A stretch of 64,000 nucleotides of DNA from Balanoglossus misakiensis (taxonomy: Eukaryota > Animalia > Hemichordata): positions 6,708,791 through 6,772,790 of the forward strand of contig CM082596.2 in NCBI GenBank assembly GCA_040954595.2, given 5' to 3'. The notes beneath the pieces are model-generated. The model saw nothing but the letters and a program-made list of their open reading frames with translations. It was not told the DNA's origin and ran no database searches. The position numbers were made by a program, and so were the translations under genes. Every line of letters begins with the position of its first letter. Position 1 is the first letter of the stretch. Shown here piece after piece: positions 10,301 through 50,768 of the stretch.

Positions 10301-13300
10301 AAATGGCACATATCTCAATTCCTACTGAAAGCTTAGCTGTGGCCGATACAATCACTTTTTACATATTAAGATTTCAATGACAGACAAAGGCATCTAATAA
10401 AGCAAGCTACACCAAATAAATTGAAGGCTGAGATCGTGTAACAGATGCTGACAGGTCATTCGAAAGACAACATTGGTAGTCCCAACATTCAAAGGTCATT
10501 CTGGATACAGCTAGCACAGTGAAACCATCCCAAGCATTCACAGCCCCTGCGTTCACTGGTCACTTCTTACCTGTATCTTGAGTTTGGCCATCTCCGCCTC
10601 GTTGACAGCGTTCTTGTACTGGCTTTCCTTCAACTTCAACCGGATGATGTTGATGTCTTCCGTCGGCGAGAGGGGTTCGTCGGGACTCTCACTGCCGCTG
10701 CTCTCGTCCAGTTCAAACGTCTCTTGGACGAGCTCATCCTCGTCCGAACCAGACTCGCTGTCGTGTTCTGCAGATTGCTGGAAAATTAAAAAGACATTGA
10801 ACACTCAGTGAGAAGAAATTTGCTTAATTTCCTTTAAGGGGGTTTCCAACACTCTCTAATTTTTACATCACAGTGCATATTGTATATAACAGGTCATTTG
10901 GGAATAAAATTTCATGATATGATCAAAGTCAAATGACTATTCTGAATAAGAAAATGTTTAAAAGTGCTAGATGTCATAGGTCACCAGGGGTCAGAGTTCA
11001 AGGCTTCAGGTACGAATTTACATCTATGTACAAGTTTGGATTAAACAGCCAGACCTATACCTGTAATACTGATTTCATGATTCCATAATCATTTATTTTC
11101 ATATTGCAAACATTCTATTCTTCAGAGGACAGGTTAAGCTGTACTCCAAAACTGAATACAACATGGACAACGTACTTGTGTATATTTTCTTCTTACCTGA
11201 ATATTTTCCTTCGGTTGAGGAGTAGTCTCTTGTTTCAGTGATTGCTGAATCAGCCTGGCAACTTCACTTGTGCCATCTTGCTCTTTCTCCCTGCCAATTA
11301 AAAACCTAAATCAGAAAGAAAAGAGATATTAACATCATTTATATGTTCTTGAAAGTTTAAGTTTGTCATCGGTTCAGGAGACACAAGAGCATATCTTCGC
11401 GGTAAACTAAATTTCTCTTTATGCGCAGAGACTTGGTATGTATTATGAAACAAATGCTACCATTTACTGTCTTATCAAGATAGGTATCCTTTTTTTAGAG
11501 AACATAAATAAAATATACTAAAAAAATAGTTTACATTTTTCAAAGATGCCGGTACTGAATACTGATGCAAATCCTAGAACATAAGTCAGTTCTGTCGGGA
11601 GCTACGCTGTCGTCTTAAATAAACACAACAAATAAATGACACGAGCAGCTCAGCTTGGCACATGCAACGAGTGTAGTGTCATCGGCCTCTATGCAGACAG
11701 CTTGGCTGCGACATGACAGTGCGTGTGGGCATCACAAGCCCAGCTGCTATACATTCGCATGAGCTGTGTTAAGTTAGTAAAATGTTTTTGGGGGGTGTGT
11801 GGTGGGGGGAGTTCTACGTTCTCCAGACCTCTCGGCCACTAGCATACCTGACTTTGCCACTGGTGTTTTTTAAGACTTGAGCTGCATAGCTTTGTGTTAC
11901 ACCTACGAGGCTCTTGCCGTCAACTTCTATGATTTGGTCGTTGACCGCAATCCTGCAAGCAAACAATTCACAATAAGGTTGGTGACGGGCGTTGACTACC
12001 GACAGCCGGGCGCACTCGGGGGATTTGGGCTGGTCAGGTGGGGGACTGGTTCATCAGATGCCGAGAAATATCACAAACTCATCAATGTAAGATAACAATT
12101 ATGACTTTGTCCACTTCTAAAACACTGACAAATATTGGATATTTCTTGGCACTGACAACATGCAATGGTTTGTTAGGAAGTCACGTACTGTAATTGAAAA
12201 TTTATTGGATTAGAATCAATTCCATGCTGAAGCTGTTAGAACTCACAACCCCATCTTCTCCAAAACTTGGAAGGATCCCCAACACTTTCCGTCGCAGGAT
12301 CATTCCAGTTTGAAGTGGGTCGATCGTAGGGGTGCGGGGGTGAAGTACATGCATGCCTGTTTGTAGAAACTTGTTAAAAATTCTCAGCTCCTGTCACTTC
12401 AACCCTGGTCTAGTCCCAATGTCTGCTTTGATGTGGATGGAACCACATTCAAGCAAACGGGGGCCACAGCCTGGCCATTGACCCATTTGTTCATTCACAC
12501 GTACATGTGTATCAATCACCCCACTGTCTATCCATCTGTCAATCATTCAGGACATTCTTAACCCATCAACCAACCCCCACACACAAACCCCACCCTTCCA
12601 CAACATTTGTACCTGCACATCACTTACATTGATTGTACACCCATCCAGAATCACCCAATACCACATACATGTACAGTACACAGCCAACACCACCCACAGC
12701 CCAAGCCTTACCTGCCGTCTTTTTGCGCAGCACCGTTTTCCGTGATAGTTTTGATGAAAATCCCCAGTTTCTCAAGACCAGCGTCGGCACCGACACCCAT
12801 CCCGATGATGCTCAGACCGAGGCCTTCTTGACCTGCAAGACGATCACAATCCATACCTCCAGTGAGCAACGTACACCACAAAAAACGATAGACAAATCTC
12901 CACACAATTCTGGAGTAAAATTCTCCAGCAATCTTGGCTAACACGTACGAAGACAACCCAGTGGTATGGAACTCTGGAATGCAGACGTCTATTTATATCA
13001 TTCAGCCCGACTGCGCGATCACAGGGGACTGCAAGTCCTCAGACCACAACTATGCTGCTGAAAGAAGAACTGATCTCCGAACGTTATCACACAGTTACAG
13101 TCTCAACTATTTCTGGTCACAATGCAGAAATCACTCACTACTTGACCATGGCTTTCTTGCTAGCGGGGAGGTTACTCTTTTTGGAAGGGTGCCACATGTT
13201 TTGGATATCATACTTCAGTTTTAAACTCCAGCTGTTAGATATTTTCGTGACCACCTTTTTACTCAACGGGCCAAGAAAAACATGGCCTAACACTGAACTT

Positions 13301-16300
13301 GTATTCGTAAACCTGACTCTCGTAATCACCACATGGTTTTCAGACCAACAGATATAGAAAACTTGACCCTGGGTCGGGTGGGCTGGCATATACCCACACA
13401 CATTTGTAGCACTACCATGGGTCTAGCAATGTACCGCTAGGCTTCATTGGCTATCACAGATAAAGTCCAGAGTAAATTATGTATGTGTATCCCCTATGAA
13501 ATAAAATAACAATTTCTGTGTGCACAGATATGATTATAAGACTGGTGATTACAATAATACATGTGTATTCAGCAGTCTCACTGCAGATGGTCAACTTCGC
13601 TATTTTTAAAATTCCTTTCTGGGCATACATCTGGAGGGGCTCTTTTGTATGGAAATATTCTGACTAATTTTAGCATTTTCCTTCCACGGTCATGGTAGCA
13701 TTTTTTTATCCAGATGTGCATTCAAATGGGATGACCCTAACGCAATCTGTATCTCATTACTCATTCTCTGCAGAGAAAAGAAGTGCTCTAAATTAAAACA
13801 GTCCTTGAAGGGCTTATGCTGCTACAGATGATAACAATATGTGCTTGATTAGGCGGAAGTACATTTCTGAATGCGAGTCATCACCCCCTGAAAGCGGGCA
13901 TCATTATTTTTGTCCTTCCGATAATTCACCAGCAATTATGCCGCGATGTATCAAAGTCGAGAATGCAGTGCCGGGAGGGGCGTTAAATTTGTCACCGACT
14001 CGCGCTATCACTTGGCAGGAAGGAAATCGAGAGTCTGGACCGATTAGACGTTCCTGTCTGAGGTTCATCGAAACTGGGAACTTCCGTAAAATCTATTCTA
14101 AAGACAAATGTCTGGTTTAACACTGTGCGTTATCATCACGTTTCTCATAATCTTGCATTGACAAAAACACTTGAGCACTTTTAGCTCTTAAGTTTGTCAT
14201 CTCTTTTGAATAATAAAAAAATAAAAGGAGATAAACCCAGATTAACTGGCCGAGAATCTTTTTTCAATGAAGATTACAGTTCTCAAATTTACTTATACCT
14301 GAAATTCAAAATGGCTGCAAAGATTTGTATTAAAGGGAAAGAGTCATTAACATTTTCATATTAATTCAGATAAATTTGATGTGAAACATACATCAGTAGA
14401 TGCTCACTGATATTTAAAGTTTGGATCCTTGGATGCAAGAGCTCAATTCCCTCCCTGAGTGTAAAACTTGCAAAGGGCTTATTTGAATTGGTGGTGGAAT
14501 ACTTCTCACGGCTTGTATATTTATGCTGACAGAAGAATTTTTCTGGTCAGCTGCCACTGTATAAACATAGCCGACTCCATCCTCACCACCTCCCATCTGT
14601 GGTAAATGGAATCACTCAGACATGCACAAGACTAGTCCGGTCCAGTGTACTACAAACTGCACCCTGGTATCACATTTTAAAATATACTTCTGCTATATAG
14701 TGAACTAACATATCTGTGACATTTGCAATGGGTGTGCATTCATTGATAATCATGCAGCAATATTACACATCCTTGGCATTTGCCGCTGATCTCAATCTCA
14801 ATCTGAAACGGCTTTGACCCACGACTGACCTTTTTCCAATTCCACAGGGAAGACGTCCATCCGGTCCACCCGCTTCTCCAGTTCGTATTCTGCCGAGGCC
14901 GCAACTGGATCGACATCGTCATTCCGTCTGTCGTAGTCCTCAAGTGCATAAGTTGAATATACCTGAAACGAAGCATACAAATGTTTCCATGAATATGAGA
15001 AAATCCAACGTTTTTCAGTAAGAAATTGGGACTATACCACCATATGCTATTTGACATTGACAAATTTATCAAAAACTGTCTCGTTTTATAATATATATGC
15101 AGGCATATTAAAAATCTATATGAACTGGACACCAAAGGGGCTTACAACACTGTTCAGTTGACAGGGGTGTCAGGATTATGGAGGTTTCTTAAAATTGTCC
15201 TCTAGACAGACAAAGGTGTTCAGTGTAGATACAATGTACATGTTGTAGGTTCCGGGATTAGACAGCATTGCCTGATTGAAAATCACTCCAGAATTGCAAA
15301 CTTTGGATTCAGACTGTGTTTTCTGCGGGAGATGGAAAATCCAGAGAAGTGGTTGCCATGGCGACATCATCCAGGGGATTTGGGAGGGCTTTTAAGTGTG
15401 TACAGTATTATCGGCTGTGCTTTCGACTCAATTTTACAATTACGATCGGAGTTGCAGATAGTCCATGCAAATGGTTGTACTGCATGAAAATTGCAGCATA
15501 GCACGGATGATGGTTGAGGCATCAAAGAGGTGTACATGTATACAGACGGACAAAAGTTCAAAATGTTCCAAAAAACCTTGGTAGAAGGAACATGCAAATT
15601 CACCAATACCAAACAACAAAACTACGACCCCCCCCCCCCCCCCCCCAACTCCAACTGATGCTTTAAACATTCCAGCCAAATATGACCAAACACAGATTTG
15701 GTGATGAGGACCCTTAGCCAATGAAAATGCTCGACATCTTTCTCCATGTGTCGACATTTTACCAGCCATTGTCAAAACTTCCACAAGACCATCTCGTAAT
15801 TTTCTGGCAGTTTTTTTTAAGCTTTTCAAGTTTAATAAGTTACAGTCAAGCTACAATGTATACGGACTGAATACGGCATGTACGTATCCTCTGGTGTACC
15901 CTCCTCAACATAACAAAACCATTTAGCATTCCACGGCCGACGAAAAGGTGTTAGTCTGAAGTCCACTCTATCAGCCGTAACACACAGATCGCTCAGAAGT
16001 GGGGAAATCACTGTGGCAAGTGCACAACAGAATACACAAAATCTAAGCTCTGACTTTTAAAATGCACTAAGACTTTCAGAACCCACAACTCAGCTCAGAG
16101 TTTTAACATTGTGCTTTTAAATTAAGAGCCCTGGCACTCATGACTACTGATGACATTTCTACGTCTAACATTCCGTATCAGAAATATGTATATCTCATAT
16201 CTAGGTATCAAGATACGCTCGGGTACACACACGCACGCACAGATCAATATAATCTAATAAAAACCCCATTCATCAAAGAAATGTAATTTGGAAATGACCT

Positions 16301-19300: not shown

Positions 19301-22300
19301 GCAAAGCTACTTGGAGAAATTTAGATTAAAAATGAAAAAAAATTCTACAATTTGTACTGATTTTGTTCCTTTTAATTCCTTCTCGGAGTTTTAAATCTTC
19401 AGTTTATTATCAGAATATCTGAATGAAATATCCATTCAGTGAATTGACAGTTACGCATAGACTTTGAAATGCACTGTGAGTATATTTATATTCTGATAAT
19501 TCACTAACGCGACTCTTATGAGATTTCCCTCTATTTAATTAAAATTTACACATGATCAAATTTGCATTTCACAAATGTAATTAAGCTGGTTTCACCGGCA
19601 GAATAGACTTTTCTCCTTTCCAGAAGAAAATCTGTAAATCAGATCTCCACAACTTAAATCATGTAGTTGTGGACCAATATTGAAATTTTGGAAAATCCTC
19701 TCTACCGTGGTTCTAACATGAACTTTTTTTAGAGTTTGCAAAATGCACCTTGTACTGTCCAAACACTAAATTCAGCAATATATAGAAAACATACATGCTG
19801 CCATATATGTAAGTTTTTATTTTTGCTTTCTTTTTTTTCACATATTGTGTACAGTATTTCATTAATCTGAATGGATAGCTCACAAGATTTATTTCCCTGG
19901 TTATAGAAAATTCATTGTCTGGGCCTTAAAAAGTGTGAGCTGTGAGTTTCTCCCTTTTTGCTTTTAAATACTCTGGTAAATATTTCCTGATGAATTCTGA
20001 CTGAGATAGACTTCTCATCTTACACACCCAAGCTGAGAGTTATTTCTCTGGCACTCAGATCACCCTGACACGTCTGCAGTCTCGTCTCACTTTTAATCAA
20101 CATGCTCAGTTCGTTACTGTTCATTAAATTAAACCGTTGATTGAATTCTTATAACGCTGTCTCATTACATGCAATGGAGGATGCGTTTCGAAATTCTGTA
20201 CTGCCTTCAAGTTTGCCTATATTGTACAACTTTTCTGTACATTTACACTATCCCCACTCCATTCAGATTATTACATGTCTTGCACAGAAATTATTGTTTC
20301 TGATGGAAAGATAAAATCATGACACTACCTTGGCACTTAACACACAGTTGCACGTTTCTTTTCAATTTTAATAACTCGCAGTATTAAATTGAATTTTTTT
20401 GAGGGAGTCTTGCCAAAAAATATCAATTGCAAGTCACATTTGCATTGGGAACGTGACTCCCCATTGATATCAGAGATCATATTCATCGATGTGTATTTAG
20501 CTTAATACACACTAGCTGCATACCACATGTTATATGACCGGAGCAATCAAAAGCTGCCATGTTTTCATCATATTTCAATAGTGAGGTGTGTCCCACAGCA
20601 ATTGATGATAATTTGATGTTTAATTAATAACCCTTGAGTAGAATTCGTTTTGAAAAAAAAAATTAATTGCAGCCATCAGAATTTTCAACATGTGCATATT
20701 GAATTCTGTCAAATGAAGTCAAGGCTAGACTAAAACTCTAACATACAGAAATACGACCAGCACACAAACGAAGCAGACATTTCATTTTGTGGTTTTAAAA
20801 TAATGATCACGTTCAATTAACTGTCTAGCTGTCGAAAACATATAAGCGGGACATGGTTGGCAAAATCTCTCATACACCTATTTCATTCACAAGAACAATT
20901 TAAGCTCGGCATGAGGTAATCTATTTGACTAAACTAGCACGATTTAAAAGTATTATTGTAAAAGCACTCCACTTCATAAGATTCTAGTGTAGAGCATATT
21001 AAGAATACAAATTCCATGCCTGTGTGTGGTGCAAATGTGGTTAAATTTCAGCCAATACCGATTTCCCCTGTTGAGATGTCTTTCAATATTCTGCAAAGTG
21101 CTTGTTAGTTTTCGCCCCGTACATAATGTACTTGTGTGTTTTCCCCTCATTTGTGTTACTTTAAATTGGCACATTATCACATTCTATGATTAGAATGGTG
21201 CCGACTTCAGTGCCAGAGAATGACTCAACGTTCTGGTTTTAAGGACACGACGTAGTAGATAGCTCATTTGTGCATGAGAGTTACAGCCACTGCGGGCAGA
21301 CAGCATATCCAGGAGGTCCCCGGCTGACAGCAGACTAGACTTGCCCCAGCTGTGAGAACATTGAAGAGCTCGACAAGGGGGGACTTGCGGCTTCTGCGGA
21401 GTAAGTCCAAGGTCACAGGTAGTGCGTAACAGAGACACTCTCTGCATGGTAAAGACAACATGTGGGTTTCTCAAAACAGATGGGCTTCCCTGACAATTAA
21501 GCCAAACACACGACGACTGTCAGCCTATTCTCAAAACAGGACAAGAAACTATACTTCATGAAGACAACAGTTATTGCTGAGAAATAGGTTACCAATGGCA
21601 AGTAACACTGAGCTACCCTTCTGCTCCTCTTAATAGCCCTTTCAGCACCATGGTTTGGTCCAAATACATCGTTTTCTATGGTAAACCCGGACCTCTATAG
21701 AGGGAACTGGGGGTGAAAGGGTTAAACAAATCTCTATTGGGTAAATTGGCTGAATGAGAGAGACTTATCACTTTCAGAATCCAACTGAGACTGCAGGATT
21801 ATCCATTTAGTTATCAGTATGAGCGGTCCAATATGTCAAAGTGTTGGCAATTCACTGTAAGGGAAATGTTTATATCCAAATGGGCATAGTTTTAGTACTT
21901 GTCTGTTGATATTTTGGCTTTCTCGCGGGGCACGCAGAACACCAATTCATCCACATGGGACAGACAGGTTGCCCAGGTAACCGCTTAATTAAGATTTCCT
22001 TTGCCCCGTAATCGAGAAATAGTCACTTTAATGACACCACTTCAAATTCTATAATCGGTGCTCACATTCTACGCAATATACTCTCAGCTCTTAACCTCCG
22101 AACTAAACTGCAAATTTGACATTTCAGATCTGGTGGCCTGCCAAAACGGTTGCCAGGGAACGTGTACATGCTAGTGAAATCTTCAAATGACCTCTGACCT
22201 GTACACTTTGACCTGAATGTCCTGTCAAGCCTTGATTCAGGTGAAAGTCATCATAATAACACCTGCCAATAATTCAATTACTTCATTAAAAATTGAACAA

Positions 22301-25300
22301 AGTGCCTCAAACCAGGACCCGAGAATGATATTGATAAAAAGCGACGATTAACTCTTAAGATATCTAAGCTCCCTAAAAAACAATCGAAAACACCAATTTG
22401 CAACGAAATGAAAAAAAATTCATCAAAGTAATCTAAATATCAAACATCGGTGGCCACTTCCTACTCTAAATGGGATAACTGGTTTACATTCACCGGCTGA
22501 AATGTTGACTCAATCATAAAAAGCAGTTTGTTTTTTCCATTAATCGGCTAGCTATTTTAACAATGTCGCCGCAATTACAAAACCGCAGCTATTTCCTTGC
22601 CGGCTTTCTTTCAACCGTCAGATCCTTTTCAACTGTCAGAATCCAAAGGTCGGCAGTTCCATTTTTAAACTCTTTATGAAGAGCTCGATCAATTAGGAGA
22701 GAGAGAGAAAAGAGATGATTTTCTACTCCATTACGTTTGTTCACACATAAGTGAGGTTGACCCTGCCCGCCCACATCTACATTGATTTTTGTCAATTTGT
22801 CCGCTTCCACCACAGAAAATGTGTAGGCAGTGCAAGTTGTATGATTCCACAGGACACAGTCATGTGAACTGTAAAATGGTCAGTCAGTTACAATGGTCAG
22901 ATAACGTTGCCACTGACAGAAAACACTCTCATTTTATGACACTTCAATATACTTCTAATCTGTAAACCTCACTTCATTCCTTCCTCAATATCACAAGACA
23001 CCCCCGCATTTTTACCCCTCTCAACTCAGAACCCCTCCACTCCCTCCTCCCCAGTCTTCCCACTAGAGGACACCCCTTAGACCAAGAGGACACCCTTCAC
23101 AACATGTGTCACCTTCATCCCCCCTCCCCCACATCTCACTGAACCCCCTCTCAAATGAAACACCCACTCTTGTTTCTCTAACATGGAAAATTTAACCTGC
23201 ATTCTCCATCCATTCTGCTTTACCTATTCTCCTCCCACCCCACACACCCTGAAACACCTGCCAAAAATATCCTCAATACCAGCTTAAAACACTGTTTTGT
23301 TTGCCTTAGGAAAAGTTCATCCGACCAGCAAATGATTCAAAATTAATCATCAAAACATTATGGATCGCTGAATAGAAGTCTTTTTTAACGTCAAGGTTTT
23401 ACTTACGAAAACAGAATAAAGAAATTTGACTTTCAACCTGTCACACTCTAAATACAAATCGACCATGAATGGAGCTGCTAAACAATTCGTATTATTTTAT
23501 TATTATTTTTTTGTACGTCAGAACTCAACAATAAGCTTCCCCTAGCCAGTCATTCCAATGAAATCTTGATTACAGTGGCATTCATTCAATATTACATGAC
23601 TCTACATTATTTTGACAACTTCTTTCATAATTTATGGCTGTTAAAGACACGGACGTGTGAACTAATTTCTGTTCGCACACACAATGTAATTTGACATGGG
23701 TTATGGCATATACTATTTAGCCAACGGGCACGTCCAGGTCATTAATTCCAGAGTTCTCCCTGGGGCAATTAGAGAGTATGGGCGGGATACCCTTTAATTT
23801 TAGAAAAACAATAGAAATTCATTATCATAACAATTGATTGAATTGTTATGTAAATTAGCCAATCGGTAACAGGCATTCCGGGGGAGAATTTTGTATTTTG
23901 CACTTTCTGAGGTTCTGAATAATCTATCTGAATAATCTACAACGACACAAGGCAGTCAACTTTGCAGAAATGAGTCAGCTGGGATAGAAGTTGGATGACA
24001 CTTGGTGTAATTCAGACCATTCATTGCATTTCCAAAATGTTACAGACATCAGCGCCTTCGAGTGACTTAAAAACTCAAGTCAATAAAGTCTGGATGTCTT
24101 AAAACAGCCAAGCAATGAATGCAAAACATACTTATCAATATCAGAAAAAAATTCTTTAAAAAAAATATTGATTAGAAAAATTATGAAGAGAGCCAGGGAT
24201 CTGCACGTAATATGCAATTTATTTTCTTGTGGATATTTGATACGACACGTTGCGTTTAAACTATTGGCCCTTAGATAAAATTGGCATCATTAGTAAGATT
24301 GGATGGTCTGTCATTAGTAAACTGAGCAGACGCCTCTCGATTTCAGTCACACATGACTGCCAGTCTTTGGCAGCCGAGATGGATCGAACTGGGAGTGAAA
24401 TTTATCAGCCCACGACAGAAATATATTGACATAACACTGCTATCAAATGGCATCAATTTTTATAAAGAATTGCTATAAAAAAAGAAACATTTTTGCCAAC
24501 TTGCAAGAGTTGCCAAAAGTGGACCAAACTGAAAAGAATATTTGATCGCCGCATCGGATGGATACTTCGCAGAGGGATGGGGGAGACAGACATAGACAGA
24601 GATGCCCAGAGACAAGCAGGGACGGGGAGGGGGGGGACGTACCTCTTCCACGTAGGGGCTGAAGTGCACCCTCTTCTGTCGAATCGGGAAGTGAGCCGCT
24701 CGCAGGGGAAGCGGTGATGAAACCACAAAACCTGTTGTCATGAACATCGCGGACATCTATTGGCATCCTCCTCATAAGAGGCCTAAAATATTTTCCTCTC
24801 TCTCTGAACCTTCCAGCGATATTTCACAAATCCGGGACAGAGACGCGGCAGTGCGGGAATGACCTTCCCATTCCTCATCAGCCACTGTGTTTGTTATTGT
24901 ATTCCGTCAGCGCATTCCGGCATCTCCAGCCTTCTTACAACCGACTGCACAGCCAGCACCACTAGACGCACACGGAACACCAAGCAAGACCTCACCAAAG
25001 AACAGCATATCCGTGGCGGGAATGTCCCATTTAGACACAAGGGGTGGCTAGTGACTGCTCTTGGAAACTGAAATGGACTAGAGCATTTTCAGTACGTAGG
25101 GGTGGCAAGGCTGTGTGACCACCAATCGGGACAAAATGACGAGCGCCAAATCACCAGTGATGAAAACCACAATCGTTTGCCCTTGAGAAACGCACAAAAA
25201 TATTTACCCCAGAAAAGTGTTGCCTGCAAGAAAATAACTGAATGGTCCACTGTAAATTATTCCTTTGATATGTGAAATTAATCCACAACCAGCATAGGCT

Positions 25301-28300
25301 CAATTTCACTTCATTTCATTACATACACAAAAAATATTTATGACTGGTGCATACTTTGACAGTATCATGACAGGCAGACTCACCCATAGATGACAGATGC
25401 AGTCATCCTACAAAATAAACAGAATGGTCCGGAAAGCCAGAACACTCTTCCCCATTTTATCAAACTTTGAATATATGATAATTGATGGTCGAATTCTTGA
25501 TTTTAGACTTAACATTTCCGATAGCAGGACACACTGCATCCCTAGTTTATTTCTTTGTAACATCAGTAATAAATGATAAGTTTAAATTATAATCAGAACT
25601 TATGAAAACCACAGATAGTAGAAAGAGCCCTTCTGTGAACAGACCGACTTTACTCATAAAGCAATTTATTGATGATACTGACTGATTTAGAAACAATTCA
25701 GTTCTTTTCATTTTTCATCACCACACTTCTTTTTACATTTCAGGGCCAGCCAACACTAAGGAACACACACACATGACAGAAAACATCACCATAGCTATTT
25801 TCACAAAATTCCAAAGGAACTTTAACAATAACCATAAACAACAGCCATTTGATTGTCTAAAACAGTTTTCCCAGAAGCATTTCTGAGCTACCAGCCAAGC
25901 AGAACTGCTCCAAAATGGGTTCCACTAAGCCCTACTGACAGGCTCGTCAAATTACTACAATACAAAGTGACATGACAGCAATAAATACATCAAAGAGAAG
26001 GCTTGATTATTTATGAACAGCTAATTTTCATATAGATTATGACTTGCAATTATGCAAATTATATCATTTCAATAATTTATTGTCTAAATTTCGAAATAAT
26101 TCTTGAATAAATACATCCATCTTGTTCCATACTAGATGGACCATATTTTGCTCATTACTAAAATAACTGGTATTTCAGAATATAAATTTAGCCAAAGATA
26201 GGACTAGACTTCAGTGACCTCATTAATATTCAGTGACCTTATTAATATTCAAAGAATGTACCACAAGAATTAAAAATCTTCAATTCTTCACGTAGATTCT
26301 CAGGCTTACGCTGACTTCGTACAATGCAGTGAATCGGTAAATTTGTCGAACAGCAATGAATGTAGAAAAATATTTTTTTATCTGCTGACTTAATTGATTA
26401 TTTCAAATAATACTCGAGTTGGCTATATCAATACTTACTCTTCAAACTGTGCAAATTTCAATGTTATTAATAAAAAAACTTCCATAGGCTGACATAATTG
26501 CTTTATGAATATTCATTAGCTCCTCTCAATAAATGACCCTATTTCATAATAATAGAACGAGGGTGATTCAGTCTCTGCTCATTTTCGATTCTGAGGTCGA
26601 GTTTCAGTTTACACATCACTTAGTACATGATCACAGCCACCGACAACATGTATTGAGTACAACCCACTCTTTGCACAGTACATGTATGAAAGAAAACACG
26701 CCAATACTTTTTAATGGCCCCCAGGGACAACCAAATTATGACGACTTCTCGCTACAATTTACAAGCTGCGACAAAAGGGACATGCCCAGATAATCTCATA
26801 ATGAACTTCAGAATTTTGTTCCACACAATTGAGCCAGTTTTATTTTAGTCAATTCATGTGTCACGATTTTACTTCAAACACACGTGCATGCATCGTTCAG
26901 AAATTAGCGTACTTCATTTTTTTAAAACGGATCTGGTTAAAAAGCAAGTACATCGTATAAAGCCAGTTTTGGCGATCGTTGCAAAATGACTTACAGCAAA
27001 CCGATGGCATCAGGCAGGAATTACACTTCCAAGCTTATCTACTCTCACTCTAATTTCATTTCCCACTCATATCACTTATTATCTCATCAGCCCTGGTAAC
27101 ATCCACTGAAGACTGAAAGTGAGATATTATGTGGTCCTCCCAATGTGACCATGATACAGTAATTGAGTGGGGGGGGGGGGGAAATTATCTCTTGATTGAT
27201 TTTGCCTTTAGCAAATTAATGAAAATGTTTGGAGGCAAATTAGATATATAAAAAGAAAGTCCCTTGGATGCCTCTGGAGTCATTAGCAGAGAACACACGA
27301 CTGGTGGTCCCTGGAGAAGCGGTTGATGAATGTGTCCAACACCTGCACTGGAGTGAGTGGGTTGTAGAAAGTAGAGTGATAACTGAGTGAGTACATGTAC
27401 TCATAGGGGTTGAAGGGCTCAATTACCATTCCACACAGCTACAGGCAAACAAAGACACACAGGACACACAGGACACACACACACACACATATTTATACAC
27501 CTCTGTGCATGCGTGCATACATACATACACATACATACATACAGTACATACATACACTATACAGTTTAGTCTCCTGATGAGTGAGTCCAGTGACTCACGA
27601 AACAACGTTGTAGAGATTATACCACCTACATCCATCCATGCACCCAGAAAGACAACAATATCATTCTGTAAAATTATATGACTTAATGCAATTCTTGATT
27701 TGATTTGATTCCGGTTTATCAAATTGGATGACTTTTTGGATATGCTCATAGCACAAAACCTTCAAATTGAAAAAAATCAGCAATTAAATGTTTTGATGTA
27801 GATTGTTTATAATCACGCCAGTCATATATTGCCTCCCAGTGCTGGAAGAAACATTTGAATCCCCTCCTAGCCCTTTGTCGCCTGGCAACCGCAAACCGCA
27901 AGTGACCCGACCACTAACGGGATCGCAGCCACCGCAAATGCTAATGAAACTTTGATTCGTATTTTTCATCGGGATGTCATGTCAAATAAACGCAGACCCA
28001 CGCCTGCAAAACTAATTAAAAATTAAGGTGTGTGGTGCAACACTGCTGAGTTAACACATACATTTTATACTGCATTTATCATAAACTTTCTATATTGCCC
28101 CATGGAGAGCATGGTTAAACAAGCTGTCATACAACCAAAACAAACTTTCTTGTTCTGTTTGTCTTGCGGTTCAAAATAAAATTTCATCAGGCCTTTGCTG
28201 GCACTCTTTGGGAAAAACAGCCTATTTTTATCAAAATTTAAAAATTTAGATACTTCAAATTCACCTTTAAAGCATAGACTCTAAATTTTCATCACATCTA

Positions 28301-28595
28301 GATTATTAACATCCCTAGAGGGCGGTCTTTAAGTAGGAGGTTGCACTGCACTGATGCATTCATTCAGAGATTGGAACGTGAACACATACCCAAAACCATT
28401 TATGGCTCCCAGTTAAAACAGTTCGACTTTTTGAGAACATTGTCTTTCACACATCTGACAAAACGTTTACGATTCACTCACCCTAATTGGCTTAACACTA
28501 AACTGGACTTTTCTTGTTTCACTGCGTTCAAACTTATGTTCTGGAAGTCCGGGAATCTCGTCTCTGTAATCGAGGTAAGCTAGCTCTTCAGCCTC
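1128..28595 (-). CDS. PPP1R9A: Neurabin/spinophilin-family PP1 regulatory subunit, partial multi-exon gene (13 core exons in window; both ends outside)
   Basis: Spliced translation gives [116 protein letters not shown], recognisably the neurabin PP1-binding and PDZ module, followed by a coiled coil. All 12 junctions are GT-AG with compatible phases. Probably co-orthologous to PPP1R9A and PPP1R9B. Confidence 0.95.
3410..3583 (-). CDS. PPP1R9A: Core exon 12 (174 nt, phase 0/0): [41 protein letters not shown]...SPPSQ
   Basis: Acceptor cctccatcag|, donor CAG|gtagct; resembles the neurabin-1 'FN...PET.RLD....K..A.L....R.RP.R' motif (recalled, not aligned). Confidence 0.9.
3878..3972. mobile_element. 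Same TTAA-MITE family, opposite orientation to 4980-5072
   Basis: ccctttcaccaccatggtttggtccaaacc..ttttctatggtgaagttggacttctaacgag..ggtgaagggg is the reverse-complement homologue of the 4980 copy. Confidence 0.75.
4028..4248 (-). CDS. PPP1R9A: Core exon 11 (221 nt, phase 1/0): acidic (A)[28 protein letters not shown]...KLEGIST
   Basis: Acceptor ttttatacag|, donor ACA|gtaagt; GC-rich open frame. Confidence 0.85.
4862..4908 (-). CDS. PPP1R9A: Candidate 47-nt exon (phase 1/0): [16 protein letters not shown], same phases as core exon 11
   Basis: Branch-like ctgac then aaacctag| (weak tract); donor ACT|gtaagc; open frame. Confidence 0.4.
4980..5072. mobile_element. piggyBac-like MITE (TTAA-CCC...GGG-TTAA), best-preserved copy
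   Basis: TTAA CCCTTTCACC ... GGTGAAAGGG TTAA; 85-bp body. Confidence 0.8.
6693..6719 (-). CDS. PPP1R9A: Predicted 27-nt microexon (phase 1/1): DYFEEPVYH
   Basis: Pyrimidine tract ctctgtcgttttctcatacaag|, donor ATG|gtaagc; keeps frame between core exons 10 and 11. Confidence 0.7.
7734..7835 (-). CDS. PPP1R9A: Core exon 10 (102 nt, phase 1/1): (D)[33 protein letters not shown]
   Basis: Acceptor tttcactcag|, donor TGG|gtaagc; open acidic frame, GC-richer than flanks. Confidence 0.85.
8075..8324 (-). CDS. PPP1R9A: Core exon 9 (250 nt, phase 0/1): [10 protein letters not shown]... E/K/V-rich low-complexity segment
   Basis: Acceptor ctctcag|, donor CAG|gtaggt; this donor is the one of two tandem GTs that matches the phase of the next exon. 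Confidence 0.87.
8501..8597 (-). CDS. PPP1R9A: Core exon 8 (97 nt, phase 2/0): [32 protein letters not shown]
   Basis: Acceptor ttttcctcttcaag|, donor AAG|gtaact; continues the coiled coil in frame. Confidence 0.9.
8851..9032. mobile_element. Tc1/mariner (pogo/Tigger-like) MITE with TA target-site duplication
   Basis: TA-CAGTATAAAACTCCAATTATCCGAACT ... AGTTCAGATAATTGGAGTTTTACTG-TA; ~25-bp TIRs with one 2-nt indel and one mismatch. Confidence 0.85.
9034..9251 (-). CDS. PPP1R9A: Core exon 7 (218 nt, phase 0/2): coiled coil VLQAQGWE...[22 protein letters not shown]
   Basis: Acceptor cttccattcag|, donor CAG|gtacag; 'QY.ALE.KY.KAK.LIK.FQ' neurabin motif. Confidence 0.95.
9588..9683 (-). CDS. PPP1R9A: Candidate alternative terminal or poison exon: [31 protein letters not shown]
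   Basis: Strong acceptor cccacctgtccgtcttccag|; phase 0 frame open to TGA. Confidence 0.4.
   Translation of the reverse strand, partial: ERDSRKSIHFSALSLLSLSTYTSNQSLVPKD
9848..9880 (-). CDS. PPP1R9A: Predicted 33-nt microexon (phase 0/0): [11 protein letters not shown]
   Basis: Long pyrimidine-rich tract ending cttctccacatacag|, donor TCT|gtgagt; in frame between core exons 6 and 7. Confidence 0.55.
10571..10777 (-). CDS. PPP1R9A: Core exon 6 (207 nt, phase 0/0): acidic linker plus coiled-coil start QSAEHDSES...[22 protein letters not shown]
   Basis: Acceptor ttttccag|, donor CAG|gtaaga; resembles the neurabin 'K.KELQ.K.AV.EAE' coil start. Confidence 0.93.
11197..11305 (-). CDS. PPP1R9A: Core exon 5 (109 nt, phase 2/0): [36 protein letters not shown]
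   Basis: Acceptor tttctgatttag|, donor CAG|gtaaga; matches the neurabin end-of-PDZ 'F.IGRE...SEVA.LI.Q.L.QE' segment. Confidence 0.95.
11848..11952 (-). CDS. PPP1R9A: Core exon 4 (105 nt, phase 2/2): [38 protein letters not shown]
   Basis: Not in the ORF track; translated by hand. Acceptor ttgcag|, donor CAG|gtatgc. Confidence 0.96.
12712..12832 (-). CDS. PPP1R9A: Core exon 3 (121 nt, phase 1/2): [44 protein letters not shown]
   Basis: Acceptor tcttgcag|, donor CAG|gtaagg; GLGL carboxylate-binding loop. Confidence 0.97.
14830..14962 (-). CDS. PPP1R9A: Core exon 2 (133 nt, phase 0/1): [44 protein letters not shown]
   Basis: Acceptor tttcag|, donor AAG|gtcagt; highly conserved neurabin PP1-binding segment and PDZ betaA. 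Confidence 0.97.
15352..15365. promoter_or_regulatory. RFX X-box-like palindrome GTTGCCATGGCGAC (representative of a dispersed set)
   Basis: One mismatch from GTTGCCATGGCAAC; function untested. Confidence 0.45.
21633..21725. mobile_element. Same TTAA-MITE family
   Basis: ccctttcagcaccatggtttggtccaaa..ttttctatggtaaa..gagggaactgggggtgaaagggttaa. Confidence 0.75.
24643..24756 (-). CDS. PPP1R9A: Predicted alternative RVxF exon: [38 protein letters not shown], splicing to core exon 2
   Basis: ATG at 24756, donor GAG|gtacgt in phase 0; KRVHFS lies at the same distance from the donor as RKVQFS in core exon 1; CpG-rich upstream flank. Confidence 0.75.
27454..27560 (+). repeat. Compound (CA)n/(CATA)n microsatellite
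   Basis: gacacacaggacacacaggacacacacacacacacat...catacatacatacacatacatacat. Confidence 0.85.
28482..28595 (-). CDS. PPP1R9A: Core exon 1 (114 nt, phase 0/0): [38 protein letters not shown], canonical RVxF exon
   Basis: Acceptor tttttttcttacag|, donor AGG|gtgagt; EIPGL and RKVQF match the neurabin PP1-docking region. Confidence 0.93.
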
Positions 28596-31500
28596 CTGTA
28601 AGAAAAAAAGCAAAAAAAAACAAATAAATTTTAGTTTCACAAAATTTTCGTAGAATGACACATTTGATAAACTGGGGAAAATTCACACAAAAGTTTTCTA
28701 ATGAGCGCCATCAATATCAAGGTTGGGATTTTCTTTCGGATGAAGCTCCCTCAACGACAATGTTGGACTTTTCTTCCCTTTTAAGTGCATGATGGATGCA
28801 CTTTCACTACACGGATATCAAATTGCAAATTCATGCCTGCAATAGAAATCAACTTTCATCAATAATATAATGCTGGCTGAACATGTATCAGTTGTGTTTC
28901 AAAACCTAAATACTGCACACTTCTTGATGGCTTAGAGCCAACGCAAACAAAAAATACTGGAAAATATGTCAAAAGTTACAGCTCTTCCAATCAGTAGGCC
29001 TGTGTGTTCAATTTGTCAGAGCACTATATATTGTGTCACAGTGCCCTCACTCGTCAGAATTTCATTTTCACGCTCACTCTCACAGCTGTTCTCCCAAGAG
29101 CACCATTTACAAATAAATTTGGGCTTATGAAAAAAATATGTGTGAAGCCCGGAACTAGTTGTTATCTGATACTCAAAACGACAAAATTTTGCTAAATAGG
29201 GTGGAAATTTAAAAGAAGCAGACACATTCTGGAATCTTTTGATCACACCGATATGATCATATTTCAAAGTCCTCTTTCTAATATCACAAGAAGAAAATAT
29301 TACTTCATATCAACTTGCAGGAATGTTTCAATACACTGGCGCCAAGGAAAATGGATATGCCACCCTCTTACTGCAGACATACAACTCAAGATTAACGAAG
29401 CTATCCCATTCCCCAGATCATATCAGAAATCGGTTTTCATCTATTAGAGTTCGACAGCAACAGAAGCCAGGCATTTTATTGCCCTTTACAATGAGAATAT
29501 CTTCGTGGAAAAAACGACGCAACTCTATCTTAGATCAACTCAAAGAAAATCGCATCATTGCACAAGACATTCATGCAGGTACTTGCAATGCTTCTTTTTT
29601 TCACTGCTGTCGTGAGGTTAACATGGAAACTCCACCAGTACAGATACGATTCCTCAGTTTTTAAGGGAAGCTTATATCAGTACATGCATTTCACTGCAGC
29701 ACTCTTTGATAATAATCTGCAAGGTTCACATGGCTACTGGCAGCCAGCAACAAAAGTGCTCTGATGACTGAATTGGGTTTATTGCCTTTTATAGCAAGCC
29801 AAGAGTACATTTGGCAGGGTGGGGGTGCGGGGTGACAGGTCTTGGTTGAGAAGCTGCCCTCAGACAGTGCATGCCGAAGATTTATTTCACAAACTTCAAA
29901 CCGAACATTGTATAAGAAGGATGCTACACGTGCTGGGGTGACTCTAATTTACATGTATACACCAGTGAAAGAAAATTCAAGGAAGAGATGATTGGATTAA
30001 GTGTAGCAGGGCTGTGCCTGGATGGGAATACATTTGCCTCTTTTAAATGATTTGACATGCATTCAAGAAAATTCTCATCGCTCATTACTACAGCTGGGCT
30101 TGTCAAAGCAATTCAGGGAGACGGTTCAACAATGCGCCCGAATTCAATAGACCAATATTTCAATGCCGGCGTTCTAACGACATGTGACCGGAATTGAGGC
30201 TTCCGACATCCATTAGATAACAACTGAATAATCCGTAATCACGTCTGGTCCAATTTCTACCTCTCTCTCTCTCTTTTTTAATTCCTTTCGAATGAAAACA
30301 CGTCCATGCTGATTCTCGGCATGCTGTTTCCCTTTCACACCTCGCAGCGACGGCGACGTTTGTAGACAGTGTTTCATTTTCGTCGACCGTTTGAAAGCAT
30401 CACGCACTTGCTTTATTTACAGCATGCAGCTTCTCAACAGAACGAGACCGCGCCAATAGCGAGGCGCTGCGACCATTAAATCAGTGAATAGACCGTCGAA
30501 ACTGCAACATCGTCTCAGACGCGGAAATTCAGCGCAAATGAAAAGGAATAACATCATTTCGAATAAAGCATGGACACAACACTTTTTTTATAAAGTATAG
30601 ACCGCATTCTAAACTAGCAGAAATTACACATTTCTTTTACAGTATCAGACACTGTATTCTAAACTAAAGTGAAATTACAAACATTCTCATGTTACTTCAT
30701 CATCGCAATCTGCGCCCACTACTCGAACTTGACCATGAAATACACCAAGGTGACCTTATACCCAAATAACATCAAAATTAGCAAATCAGTCACAGAACTA
30801 AATTCCACTCGAGCAGATAAATGTATTCCCTCCACTCTTATTTTTCTCTCCAAAAAACACACATTCGGCGACCGAAATTAAATTCTGCGAGATGAACGGC
30901 AAAGTCGCCGGGGGAGAAGTATTCTGGCTGCTAATTGCTTCACGTGGCCGTCACACAAAAACACACTGAGCAGAAACGTTTAATCTAATTGCCGTGTCTT
31001 TCAACCTTTTGGAAGTCAATTCATCTGCTGGATGAAAATGTTTGCGGTGAGGTGCTTGATTGCGTATTCGTTTACGCCGATAATTACGCGACGTGTCGAC
31101 TTCGATTCTGTTCAAAACCCAAGCCACGTCGGGCAAGGTGGTGACCCTGTCCACTGAAATCAAGGGTTCCCGGAACTAGAGTCTCTTTAATAGGCAAACT
31201 ATTCACAATATAAAAATTAGAAAAAGTGACCGAAAAGGAAGTTATATGAATGGCTATGCATGAATTGACTTTCACGAATAACCTGTCTCGCGTAGGTGAT
31301 TGGGAACACAATGAGAACTCAAATTTCAGTGCGTAATTGCACGTGTTTGCAAAATTCGAGTAATTGTATACCGCGTGTATTCTCTGAGCCATTAACCAGT
31401 GGGCCACTCCTCGAAAGAGGGCAGAGACATGAATTACAAAATCAACATGTAAGTTCAGTTCGTTCATTTACGAGAGGGGAGAGATCGAGTCATTCAGTTT

Positions 31501-37500: not shown

Positions 37501-40500
37501 ACACCCACTGTCTGTTGCCATGGCGGCCATTCAATGGAAGTTTCAGATGGCTGCAAACAGGATTTTTTTAGGATCTCACACGCAAACCCACAGGAGTGAA
37601 CGTTTCCAGGCATCCCACGGACCTATTTACCAACAATGGCCCGCCTTTCACACGCCAATAATACCAACAGCTCGGCTTGTAATAATGCCAATATCACCAA
37701 CAGATCCTCCATTATCCGTTAGCTCCAACAGGACACAGTAGACACAATTATCAGCTCTGACGACGGGATTAGTAAACATGCTAGAAATCACGGCGTCTTG
37801 ACGTCGCGTTCATGATTATCTTTCGCCGAGACGCATCTGCACGTGGCAACTGAGCATTCTTTAGGTGCCAGCGTGTGTGTGCATTAAAGGGAAAATACAG
37901 AACCTCTTTCTAAGGCTGTGTAAACAATGTCACCTGATGAATTATCGAAGTGACACTAATATTTGCATTTAGTCCAGGCATGCCTCTGTGATGTGTACTG
38001 AAGAGTTTGAGAGTACCTGATTGCAGGTGTACTGACAGGTATTATGTCGCTAAAGCTAAGATTAGCATATGATCTCTTTGGAATTAGATGATTTTTCATC
38101 CATAATTACAAATTGATGCCGCAACTGACAACGCAAAAAACTATTTGGCACTACGCTAAGTGTTAATGTTGTGTCAACTTGCCCCACTGGAGTGACGTTT
38201 CATGCAAAATAAATCTTTCCGATGGCATTTCTTTGCCGTGGTTTAATTCACATCAGAGGAAATAATTTGCACTCTTCGACATCAAATTCAGGGACGGTTC
38301 CTGTTCAACTGGAACAGGACACCTCCTGAATGAACACGCAACTATCAACCAATTTACCCACTGGCATCCAATTTGCAAAGTTCACAGCTTTTCCGTTGGC
38401 CGACGCTCAAAAGCTGTGCACGTCGCACAGAAAGATAATTATCCTCACTACACTACCGTTTTCTGCTAACCTCTTAGCACTTCAGGGCTGCCATATTTTT
38501 TGCAGCTATTATCGATGATACACTACCGGACCAAATCATCTCATTTATTTTTTATTTAGCGAATTGTGATGATCGTACGTGACAGTTTATACCACATCTG
38601 GAAAATCTGACCGATGTGCTGGATCTCGTTGTAAAATAAAAATTACAATTTTCCCTGAATATTTCTGTTCAGATCAATCTTTTTAATGGTCAATTCACAG
38701 AGCAGCAATAGACTCCTATTTTTAGTCACTGAGTTATAGTCCATCTACATTTTATGTCCTTAGAAAAGGAATGATTAACAACAAATTTGGACTGAAATGA
38801 ACTCTGATGAAGACAGGCCTTGAAAATGAAAATCTACCGAGACAGGGCAGACTATTGAGCCGACATAAAGTCATATAAATTTCTTTAGAGCTAAAAGTTA
38901 AATGATCTGACATAAATCCAAGTTAACAATGCTATTTTTATCTCAGACACCTTCCAATGTAAAAAAAATATGTGCAGTTACATTTAATTTTATGAATTTA
39001 CCGGTGTACTGATTCAGAATTCAATAATAACACCGTGCACACACACTTTTGACATTTGGCAATGCTGCAGGATCAACCTGATGACATTTTGCAATCAGAC
39101 GAAGACATTGTAAAAGGAATACGTCATTACACTTTGGAAGAAGCTCACAGATCATGCACTGATCGATAACAGCGGGGCATTCTTTTTATGGCTTACCACA
39201 TTGCCGTCCAGAATATACTGTTGTGTCCACCAAAGAACACGACAAATTATACAGGGAAATAGTAAAATGTTGAAGACCCCCGACATGGGAACTTTAAACG
39301 TGAACTGAAAATTGCCCTAAGATGGCATCTCCCCTGAGACATGTATAATGGTTGCATCAGCAGGTGACCCAACACGCAGTGCTCAGAGACAAGTCGACTG
39401 GAATCAGTTTTTTTATTTCTTCGGAAGTATGCGTAGAATATAGATTTTGCTACATTTTGGTGTGAAACGCATATTGCATCAAAGTTTGAACGATATCAGA
39501 CCATATTCAGCTGTGTGCTAGCTCGTTATGGGACAGCTCATCAAAACACCAGTACTGTTATATTGACACTCCAACGCAACATGGTGTCCATCATAATTTG
39601 CATACTAAACTCCCCCGTGAGAACAGACCGATTTAAAAGTCTACCTGAAAAGTAGGTCAATTTATTAATAATGACGCATCGCATTGCACAGTGCCAGCAA
39701 CAGATCAAACTGCGGACCGACACAGGAAAATGTGTGCGCAACCATGTGATCATAATGCACAAAGCACTGGGAAAGGTACACCTCCGGAATTCGTTTGAAA
39801 CAAGAAATCCTGCCAGATAGGGCCTTTTATCCCCCCAAGATATTACATTTACATTGTATTGAGCACTGTGGGAAGGTAAACATTTCTTTCCCTGCTTTGC
39901 TGGGGCACTGTACTTCTTGTCGCTGTGACTCTGAAACAGACTGCACGTTTCACATATGTGACGTGAAAGCAAGGGACATCTTAACCACCATTTCACCCAA
40001 CAAACCAAACACACGAACAAAACCCAAACATATGAACAAACCACAAAGGAAGCAGTACCAAAGATAGATTTCCCATTACAGAAGAACAAATGAGACCTCA
40101 TACTCAGATATTGATTTGCACATTGCGTCAGTGTGTGTATCACATGTTCGCTCAGTTCAGATGGTGAAACTATTGACGCACTGGGCCCCTTTGTTTAACT
40201 CCTTTTGTTGAAAAAAGAATAACACCCACCATATAAAACGATAATATTTGCTATCAGCAGTTTACCAAAAGCCTTTTTTTTGCACTATTGGTCACTACGT
40301 TTTTATAAATCCCACAAAACAGATGGTGTGTACATGTGGTGTTAACAAAAGCCAATGATATAATACAGAGTGATACTGAATATATTTCAATGTTCAGATG
40401 ATAAAAATCAGGCAGAACAAAATTACAGCTCACTGAGGGACTGATGTATATTTAATGAAAGCTGTCCTCAAAAATCAGATCTTTTCCCACCGGTAATCTT

Positions 40501-43500: not shown

Positions 43501-43685
43501 AGCCATATTTTCTGTGACAACAACAGATTAATGGGTTTTGGCGGATTGTAATTGAGGTAATGTTTGGTAGAAGTGTGCACTCACATGATCGCAGCGTTCC
43601 ACAAACACACAATCTTAAAATGCAAACAAAATCACAGTATGGAAACAAGAGTTTGTCGATAATCAGGATTTTTTTCGGGGTTTAC

Positions 43686-43796
43686 CTTGTGATCAAGGAT
43701 GTAGTATAAGATGTGTGCTGGGCATTCTGGCATCACCGGGTAGTAGGCGGGATTCGGGCCGTCGTGACAAATGCAACAGCAGCAGCAAATTGGCAT
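43686..43796 (-). CDS. PPP1R9A: Predicted alternative first coding exon: MPICCCCCICHDGPNPAYYPVMPECPAHILYYILDHK
   Basis: GCAATG start, donor AAG|gtaaac in phase 0 (compatible with core exon 1), inside a CpG-rich patch. Confidence 0.6.
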
Positions 43797-45059
43797 TGCA
43801 TGACCAGCAGGAGAACTCAGCCGCCGGAGATGATATAGTTTTGCGAGATCAGTGAGAGCTGATGTCGTCGAGAGAAAAAAACGTTTCACGGCTACATCGG
43901 TATCGCCGGGGTAACCTCGGCGACGCAACTTATCCTCGACGTGGCGAGGAAATCACTGGCTGGTTTGTGGGTTCAGTTCTCTGAAATCCAGTGGAGCATC
44001 ATCCATCTGCAGAACTGCCCAATCCCCATCCTTTTTTTCCTTCAAATTCCTCTTACTGTTTCAAATCGGTTCAGTACACCACAAATCCATTTTTCCTTGA
44101 AATTTTTTTCCTATCGGCAGTCATTAACGCCCGGATACAAAATTCCCCCTTTTCCTGGATTCTCCGGTACTAATCCGCCGATGTTAGTTTATCCGGTATC
44201 ACACTCTGCTGGGGACAGCGGCCATTGTTAAACCAACAGCTCGGCACAATATCCACAGATCGCCGGGGATTAGCTGCACCGCGGGTCAATAGAATGAATT
44301 TGTATATTTTACGTGCACACTTCCAAAGAGATTTTGATGCCACTCAGTTTGATAAGTGCTTTCAAGGTCACACTCGGCAAATGAAATGTTCTGACACCGA
44401 ACAGCCCCACCACAAGGCTGCCATAAACGCCGGCCAGAGGGGTTCTTCTCGGTAATCTTGATTTCCGAAAGCAATCAAGAGAGCATTCTGTCCTTGAGAG
44501 GTAGCAGCCTCATACTTCAATGCGAAGGACGTGATATTCGCCTTTCGCTCTGGTGTGGCAGGACTTTTTGTTGGTACTGGTGCACACTACTCCATAATTT
44601 CCCTCACAGATCAGAACGCTTCTTGTCAATCACGCCTTGACTGGAACAGAAGTCATGTTTGCATTACTGTATCTACTATGGGTCCACACCGACAATGTTT
44701 TTGTATTCTAAGCACAGCGTTGAAGTCAGACAGGCAATGTTTGCGAGGTGAAATATGTGCTCTCTAGCAGGCGACATCCCCAATGGGACAGAGCACAGCC
44801 ATCGTCACCATCAGGGAAACACAAAACCCTGAACGGAGAGCTGGGGTGATAAATTAGAAGGAACAGCGTCTGATTATCTCACAGGCAGTCGCGAGAGCAT
44901 CACACAGATTCATCCCGTCCGTCGGAAACAAAACACCGAGTCGCCGTACAGAAAACCTTCACCAAAGAATCATTCAGCGGGCACTTGAACAGAGAAAGCT
45001 ACGCAAGCTCACCGCAGCGAGAGTCACGTCGACGCAAACAGCTGATGAGACACAAATGA

Positions 45060-45067
45060 TGACGTCA
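45060..45067. promoter_or_regulatory. Perfect CRE (TGACGTCA) in a CpG-rich patch
   Basis: Motif match ~50 nt upstream (minus strand) of a GCG|gtgagc donor. Confidence 0.35.
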
Positions 45068-50760: not shown

Positions 50761-50768
50761 TGACGTCA
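50761..50768. promoter_or_regulatory. Perfect CRE (TGACGTCA) in the CpG-rich patch 50700-51050
   Basis: Motif match only. Confidence 0.3.

What the first reader, a model, noticed from the sequence alone, without database searches (positions are those of the whole stretch)
24643..28595. Two interchangeable exons, each supplying a different PP1-docking RVxF motif to the same PP1/PDZ module
Seen: the canonical exon ends [16 protein letters not shown]; an exon 3.7 kb downstream ends [16 protein letters not shown]. Both have phase-0 donors, the same motif-to-junction spacing and exactly 114 coding nt. The ATG is directly preceded by TAG, so it could be a first exon or a mutually exclusive one. Established: neurabins bind PP1 through RVxF, a hydrophobic pair and the YDRR arginine at fixed spacing, and phosphorylation of the Ser after RVxF reduces binding. 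Inference: the alternative exon rebuilds a full PP1 site without the actin-binding N-terminus and EIPGL segment, and makes that Ser an SP (proline-directed kinase) site. This would be a splice-encoded swap of phosphatase localisation and regulation. I cannot confirm that it is undescribed.
Basis: partly seen in the sequence, partly recalled or inferred. Interest (0 to 1): 0.9.

Follow-up and report, generated by a model that had tools for sequence, protein, structure and literature searches.

The report
Second PP1-docking exon in acorn-worm neurabin
An intron of an acorn-worm neurabin gene holds a second phosphatase-docking motif lined up exactly with a splice site, which likely starts a shorter neurabin that would still grip the phosphatase PP1 but lack the long front end; no transcript or relative confirms it yet.

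Summary
Observation confirmed. The gene is an enteropneust hemichordate neurabin/spinophilin on the minus strand. Inside the 13.5-kb intron after the canonical RVxF exon, 24756-24643 is an ATG-led open frame ending [11 protein letters not shown] at a good phase-0 donor, in the same register as the canonical motif. Simulated chance per intron is about 0.02 for a generic motif with an ATG and 0.002-0.004 with the conserved Ser, and the segment lies in the most GC-rich non-exon 500 nt of the window. The equal 114-nt length looks coincidental: the two exons do not align and the TAG acceptor is poor, so 'mutually exclusive' is not supported. The motif's tail is not neurabin-like (no P-I) but resembles Phactr/PPP1R15/ICP34.5 (F-S-x-Y-V-E). 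Best reading: an alternative first coding exon from an internal promoter (0.5); amphioxus has an annotated alternative N-terminus at the same junction, without RVxF. Against: no orthologue was found, none of 184 fetched neurabin models has such an isoform, ten upstream ATGs, and the same hexapeptide recurs at 38805 without a donor. Expression, splicing and PP1 binding are untested. Rivals: chance (0.3), 33-nt cassette exon (0.1).

The parts
28482..28595 (-). Canonical neurabin RVxF exon (114 nt, phase 0-0; EIPGL segment and RKVQF motif)
   Evidence: 70% identical to P. flava aa 664-703; weak PF17817 match, positions 7-39 of the model
24643..24756 (-). Candidate alternative coding exon: ATG-led 38-codon open frame ending in [11 protein letters not shown]
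   Evidence: chance estimates; GC 0.55 and GC3 0.66; inferred exon, no reads
24637..24645 (-). Predicted splice donor GAG|GTACGT, followed by about 90 nt that are 73% pyrimidine
   Evidence: score 6.34 vs -1.2 to 10.7 for 13 true donors, top 15 of 943 GT sites in the intron
24551..25050 (.). GC-rich block (0.538) spanning the candidate exon and its putative leader
   Evidence: highest of 2205 overlapping non-exon 500-nt windows; CpG o/e only 0.72
24643..24675 (-). Rival 33-nt cassette exon (phase 0-0) holding only the 11-residue motif, acceptor ...CGACAG|AAG with a CTCAC branch-like site
   Evidence: acceptor score 6.2, top 4.6% of intronic AGs; sequence
25181..25223 (-). Two strong candidate acceptors (25223, 25181) at the upstream edge of the GC-rich block; possible 5' boundary if a non-coding leader exon lies further up
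   Evidence: scores 10.7 (top 0.1% of intronic AGs) and 8.1 (top 1.3%); read-through from the canonical exon stops after 44 and 30 codons
24764..24775 (-). Two out-of-frame ATGs (24775, 24766) just upstream of the in-frame ATG
   Evidence: would stop after 51 and 48 codons once spliced to 14962
14830..14962 (-). Shared exon with the hydrophobic pair, YDRR arginine and helix of the PP1-binding module
   Evidence: 100% to P. flava; PF17817, E 4e-19; PDB 3egg/3hvq/9gsu
11848..12832 (-). Two main PDZ-domain exons (12832-12712, 11952-11848)
   Evidence: PDZ PF00595 at P. flava aa 742-825

Best explanation
The segment 24756-24643 is likely an alternative first coding exon, transcribed from an inferred internal promoter and predicted to splice to the shared exon at 14962, which would give a neurabin lacking about 700 N-terminal residues but with its own RVxF motif in register with the hydrophobic pair, arginine and PDZ domain. 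Shown: motif, open frame, donor-like site, register, GC-rich block. Inferred: transcription, splicing, translation from ATG 24756 or 24747, PP1 binding. The short form would recruit PP1 to PDZ-bound substrates without the N-terminal targeting region (F-actin binding in vertebrate neurabins; recalled) and without the EIPGL segment. The motif looks independently acquired rather than duplicated. The Ser-Pro could put docking under proline-directed kinases (untested).
For: Chance 0.002-0.02 per intron. Top GC 500-nt non-exon block of the window, with exon-like GC and CpG density. Tail matches proven RVxF-phiphi-R proteins: Phactr1/3 IRFSDYVEV, PPP1R15A VRFSEKVTV, and the PP1-binding ICP34.5 peptide with RVRFSPHV. 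In-frame TAG before the ATG and a poor acceptor there exclude a longer internal coding exon. Precedent at the same junction: B. floridae isoform X17 (P0336) has a different 24-residue N-terminus; Asterias rubens and S. purpuratus RefSeq models are split at this intron, with downstream models starting inside the shared exon.
Against: No relative of the 38-mer: 3 candidates, none at E<=10; 1 hit, a spurious repeat protein; no usable hit. 0 of 184 fetched neurabin proteins carry a non-canonical RVxF at this junction, including 15 of 18 P. flava and 8 of 8 G. talaboti isoforms, although the P. flava set does record a 48-nt cassette exon shared with this window. Ten upstream ATGs within 550 nt, two overlapping out of frame. 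No TATA box or CpG island. The same hexapeptide occurs again at 38805 with no donor in register, itself a 0.002-0.005 event, so coincidences of this size do occur here. The motif definitions were chosen after seeing the sequence, GC-rich DNA favours such codons, and the scan covers very many windows. The amphioxus N-terminus has no RVxF and no similarity; the echinoderm splits may be annotation artefacts.
Confidence: 0.5

Rival explanations
1. Chance look-alike: an intronic GC-rich element (enhancer or unrelated promoter) happens to spell an RVxF next to a GT; nothing is spliced or translated.
For: No orthologue and no annotated isoform; residues F+2 to F+5 occur in 0 of 43 canonical neurabin segments; second RVHFSP at 38805 without donor; generic expectation is 0.07 per intron at the loosest realistic setting; 14 other GT sites in the intron score as well.
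Against: Needs motif, Ser+1, family-type Val+4, register, phase, good donor, open frame with ATG and the top GC block together; the joint motif-donor expectation is below 0.001 when Val+4 is counted (2 hits in 40 Mb; post hoc).
Confidence: 0.3
2. A 33-nt cassette exon (24675-24643) is spliced between the canonical exon and 14962, adding a second RVxF in tandem; the new motif takes the register with the hydrophobic pair while the full N-terminus is kept.
For: Phase 0-0, open, acceptor in the top 4.6% of intronic AGs with a branch-like CTCAC; the exon would be exactly the motif.
Against: No insertion at this junction in any of 184 fetched proteins; does not explain the 550-nt GC block upstream or the open frame back to an ATG.
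Confidence: 0.1
3. A real but non-coding or 'poison' exon (25223 or 25181 to 24643): either a leader for a short isoform starting at a Met inside the shared exon, or a stop-carrying exon that triggers decay; the RVxF frame is incidental.
For: Best acceptor of the intron sits where GC rises; echinoderm models start at the internal MDVF Met; many upstream ATGs.
Against: Leaves the in-register motif as a 0.002-0.02 coincidence.
Confidence: 0.07
4. One reading: a 114-nt internal exon, mutually exclusive with the canonical one, using TAG|ATG as acceptor.
For: Equal length and phase 0-0.
Against: Acceptor score -5.5, purine-rich, worse than about 81% of intronic AGs; no homology between the exons, whereas mutually exclusive pairs usually arise by duplication (general knowledge).
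Confidence: 0.03

Closest known systems
Neurabin/spinophilin (PPP1R9A/B) RVxF-phiphi-R-W plus PDZ module
   Same: Host gene; shared exon matches PDB 3egg/3egh/3hvq/9gsu chains; F+7/F+8/F+18 spacing is kept by both exons.
   Different: No second RVxF exon seen in any fetched model (0 of 184) or in the ten paper searches; the candidate lacks the near-invariant P-I at F+4/F+5.
Branchiostoma floridae neurabin isoform X17 (XP_035661321.1, P0336)
   Same: Short alternative N-terminus joined at exactly the same junction.
   Different: 24 residues, no RVxF, no similarity to the candidate; it would lose the PP1 anchor instead of replacing it; computational annotation.
Phactr1-4, PPP1R15A/B and HSV-1 ICP34.5 RVxF tails
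   Same: Val at F+4 in all; Y-V-E at F+3..F+5 as in the four Phactrs; F-S-P as in the ICP34.5 peptide shown to bind PP1.
   Different: Resemblance covers only about 7 residues; no RPEL repeat upstream; F-to-Arg distance is neurabin's 18, not Phactr1's 14. Convergence, not membership.
t-DARPP and other internal-promoter isoforms of PP1 regulators (recalled, not checked here)
   Same: An intronic first exon yields an N-terminally truncated PP1 regulator.
   Different: Those lose the PP1 motif; here the new exon would supply a replacement.

Membership tests
Neurabin/spinophilin (host gene) | PP1-binding segment PF17817 followed by PDZ and coiled coil | tested here: met
Neurabin/spinophilin (host gene) | Large N-terminal (actin-binding) region | tested here: inconclusive
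   No tblastn match of aa 1-630 of three hemichordate proteins in the window: outside the window or diverged
RVxF-phiphi-R-W PP1 interactors (candidate isoform) | RVxF consensus | tested here: met
   KRVHF fits both stringent consensus patterns used (patterns recalled)
RVxF-phiphi-R-W PP1 interactors (candidate isoform) | Spacing to hydrophobic pair and Arg as in neurabin | tested here: met
   F+7 V, F+8 Y, F+18 R if spliced to 14962; which residues form the pair in spinophilin is recalled
RVxF-phiphi-R-W PP1 interactors (candidate isoform) | Neurabin-type linker S-x-x-P-I | tested here: not met
   P at F+4 in 42 of 43, I at F+5 in 38 of 43; candidate has V, E
RVxF-phiphi-R-W PP1 interactors (candidate isoform) | Physical PP1 binding dependent on the Phe | not testable with these tools
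Alternative first exon | Donor, start codon, open frame, no good acceptor at the coding start | tested here: met
Alternative first exon | Transcription start and junction reads | not testable with these tools
   No read set could be laid on the window
Alternative first exon | Conservation in orthologous introns | tested here: inconclusive
   No acorn-worm genomic intron available; 0 of 30 distant animal loci with the whole intron (19,075 nt in all) hold a second motif
Mutually exclusive homologous exons | Similar length and same phase | tested here: met
Mutually exclusive homologous exons | Sequence homology and a usable acceptor | tested here: not met

The most novel reading that the evidence does not exclude
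An acorn-worm neurabin has evolved, de novo in an intron, a second non-homologous PP1-docking exon with a Phactr/PPP1R15-type tail, so that promoter choice swaps the PP1 anchor, its kinase control (Ser-Pro) and the targeting N-terminus on one PP1/PDZ module.
Probability: 0.4. Interest if true: 0.68.

Novelty: new variant of a known kind. Interest (0 to 1): 0.45.

Why it matters
The intron that splits neurabin's PP1 site between RVxF and the hydrophobic pair is ancient (52 of 78 scored animal loci have an intron at this junction), so it is a natural hinge for swapping the anchor. A real second RVxF exon would be a natural experiment on how a short linear motif arises convergently and on whether the linker after RVxF tunes PP1 affinity, isoform choice and kinase control. 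It is so far seen in one genome only, so its reach is limited until relatives or reads confirm it.

Tried and rejected
Expression: the look-up of sequencing runs for 24500-25300 listed no RNA holder (none was listed, which is no evidence either way), so no reads were laid. No whole genome is held. Homologue searches with the candidate: none; the one hit P0162 is a tandem-repeat ORF. Metagenome loci (80 kept of 149 confirmed) are from distant animals with short introns (51-2341 nt) and show no second motif; weak evidence. The Amphiura model P0249 has an odd N-terminus at this junction but its Phe is out of register; three fish models (P0107, P0110, P0148) have short N-termini without RVxF and P0149 is partial. 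Duplication of the canonical exon: rejected; no long repeat touches the candidate. Derivation from a Phactr exon: rejected by eye, no RPEL-like sequence upstream. Structure or complex prediction: not run, as no PP1 sequence was held and a 38-mer alone is uninformative. Earlier findings of the scan: nothing. Four primary papers were not held, so the roles of the EIPGL segment and of the Ser after RVxF rest on recall plus one table row listing neurabin Ser461 as a PKA site.
Full report
Gene and organism. The window holds most of a neurabin/spinophilin gene on the minus strand. The exon at 14962-14830 is 100% identical to Ptychodera flava, 98% to Glandiceps talaboti and 95% to Saccoglossus kowalevskii proteins, the canonical RVxF exon only 70% to P. 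flava, so the animal is an acorn worm close to, but not, P. flava (inference). tblastn maps 15 exon-like segments from 28598 down to 1130; the first 630 residues of three hemichordate proteins match nothing in the window.

Observation. All sequence claims hold: two 114-nt segments, phase-0 donors, Phe six codons before each donor, TAG before the ATG. Of 30 motif-plus-GT hits on the minus strand at spacings 3-10, only these two have spacing 6.

Chance. A donor matrix from 13 donors of this gene gives the candidate 6.34 (true donors -1.2 to 10.7, leave-one-out); 15 of 943 GT sites in the intron reach it. In 40 Mb of order-3 Markov sequence the expected number per 13,519-nt intron, with a donor score of at least 2.3, is 0.071 for a generic RVxF in register, 0.019 with an in-frame ATG, 0.0044 with Ser at F+1 (40 of 43 canonical segments have it), 0.002 with both, and 0.0007 with P/V/I at F+4 (one search gave similar values). 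These patterns are recalled or chosen after the fact. Separately, 24551-25050 is the most GC-rich of 2205 overlapping non-exon 500-nt windows; the candidate has GC 0.55 and 7.0 CpG per 100 nt, within the range of the 14 coding exons (0.41-0.65; 0.9-9.5). It is no CpG island (o/e 0.72). A caution: the hexapeptide RVHFSP occurs a second time at 38805, with no donor in register, at an expected frequency of 0.002-0.005.

What kind of exon. The TAG|ATG acceptor scores -5.5, below about 81% of intronic AGs, and the two exons do not align, so the equal length is probably accidental; it also depends on which of three in-frame ATGs is used. An internal coding exon cannot begin upstream of that TAG. Two options remain: a first coding exon, or a 33-nt cassette from 24675 (acceptor 6.2, top 4.6%). 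The best acceptor of the intron, 25223 (10.7), and 25181 (8.1) lie where GC rises, so a non-coding leader exon may splice in there; joined to the canonical exon they would stop after 44 and 30 codons. Ten ATGs lie between 25300 and 24757; two out-of-frame ones overlap the start, so efficient translation needs a start site near the ATG or leaky scanning (inference).

The motif. Among 43 distinct canonical segments F+4 is P in 42 and F+5 is I in 38; the candidate's H, P, Y, V, E at F-1 and F+2..F+5 occur in none. The tail instead matches other members of the RVxF-phiphi-R-W group defined in PMC7599070 and PMC12185105 (passages read; supplement 2 of the latter): Phactr1/3 IRFSDYVEV, Phactr2/4 LRFNEYVEV, PPP1R15A VRFSEKVTV, PPP1R15B VTFLEEVTE. 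An ICP34.5 peptide with RVRFSPHV binds PP1 (bioRxiv 10.1101/2025.06.04.657796, passages). So Ser-Pro after RVxF is compatible with binding, and the motif looks independently acquired. Spliced to 14962 it keeps neurabin's F+7, F+8 and F+18 positions. PMC12185105 reports that neurabin's substrate choice rests mainly on the PDZ domain (abstract and passages), which the short isoform would keep.

Relatives. No homologue of the 38-mer was found. Searches with the shared region listed the best 120 of 3597 and 120 of 4500 hits; with cluster members 184 proteins of at least 300 aa carry the junction, many being isoforms of one gene: 178 are canonical and 6 differ, none with an RVxF in register. This covers 15 of 18 P. 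flava and 8 of 8 G. talaboti isoforms; the P. flava set does record a 48-nt cassette exon that this window shares (7 of 15 include it), which makes the absence a real, if modest, negative. In favour of an internal start: B. floridae X17 joins a different 24-residue N-terminus at the same junction, and A. rubens and S. purpuratus models are split at this intron, with downstream models (also in L. variegatus) starting at the Met inside the shared exon; these may be annotation artefacts. Of 80 metagenome loci, 78 were scored, 52 have an intron at this junction, 30 show the whole intron and none holds a second motif.

Literature. Ten searches (listings and abstract starts only) showed no paper on a second RVxF exon in neurabin or on hemichordate neurabin; the library lacks most subscription papers, and four primary papers were not held. 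Passages were also read in PMC6377682, PMC8124259 and PMC4643138 (a table row giving neurabin Ser461 as a PKA site). That this Ser follows the RVxF and lowers PP1 binding, and that the EIPGL region confers isoform selectivity, is recalled.

Verdict. The feature is real in the sequence and unlikely by chance within this intron, but its use is unproven. Most likely an alternative first coding exon that rebuilds the PP1 anchor on a truncated neurabin (0.5); chance 0.3; 33-nt cassette 0.1; non-coding or poison exon 0.07; mutually exclusive exon 0.03. New variant of a known kind; interest 0.45, about 0.68 if confirmed.

Noticed in passing
window 38788-38805 (-): A second exact RVHFSP hexapeptide in the upstream intron, with different codons and no donor in register (expected 0.002-0.005 by chance). 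Chance or a decayed relic.
   Followed up: partly
window 9848-9895 (-): 48-nt in-frame cassette exon in the coiled-coil region, matching a segment included in 7 of 15 P. flava isoforms and absent from 8 of 8 G. talaboti isoforms.
   Followed up: yes
window 30000-31500, 43500-46750, 50500-51250, 53250-53750: CpG-rich non-coding blocks (o/e about 1.0-1.4 in their top windows against a mean of 0.62) in the long upstream intron: candidate unmethylated promoters or enhancers, possibly leader exons.
   Followed up: no
window 28600-64000: No match to the large N-terminal exon of hemichordate neurabins in more than 35 kb: the upstream intron is very long or the exon is diverged.
   Followed up: partly
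window 3875-3959, 4979-5073, 21634-21726, 62492-62529: Short interspersed repeat family in both orientations (up to 93 nt, 84% alike), MITE/SINE-like.
   Followed up: no
window 54103-54306: Tandem duplication with a period of about 102-103 nt.
   Followed up: no
P0336, P0306, P0282 (protein ids): Amphioxus alternative N-terminus and echinoderm gene-model splits all fall at the intron that divides the PP1-binding site, hinting at a deuterostome-wide internal promoter.
   Followed up: partly
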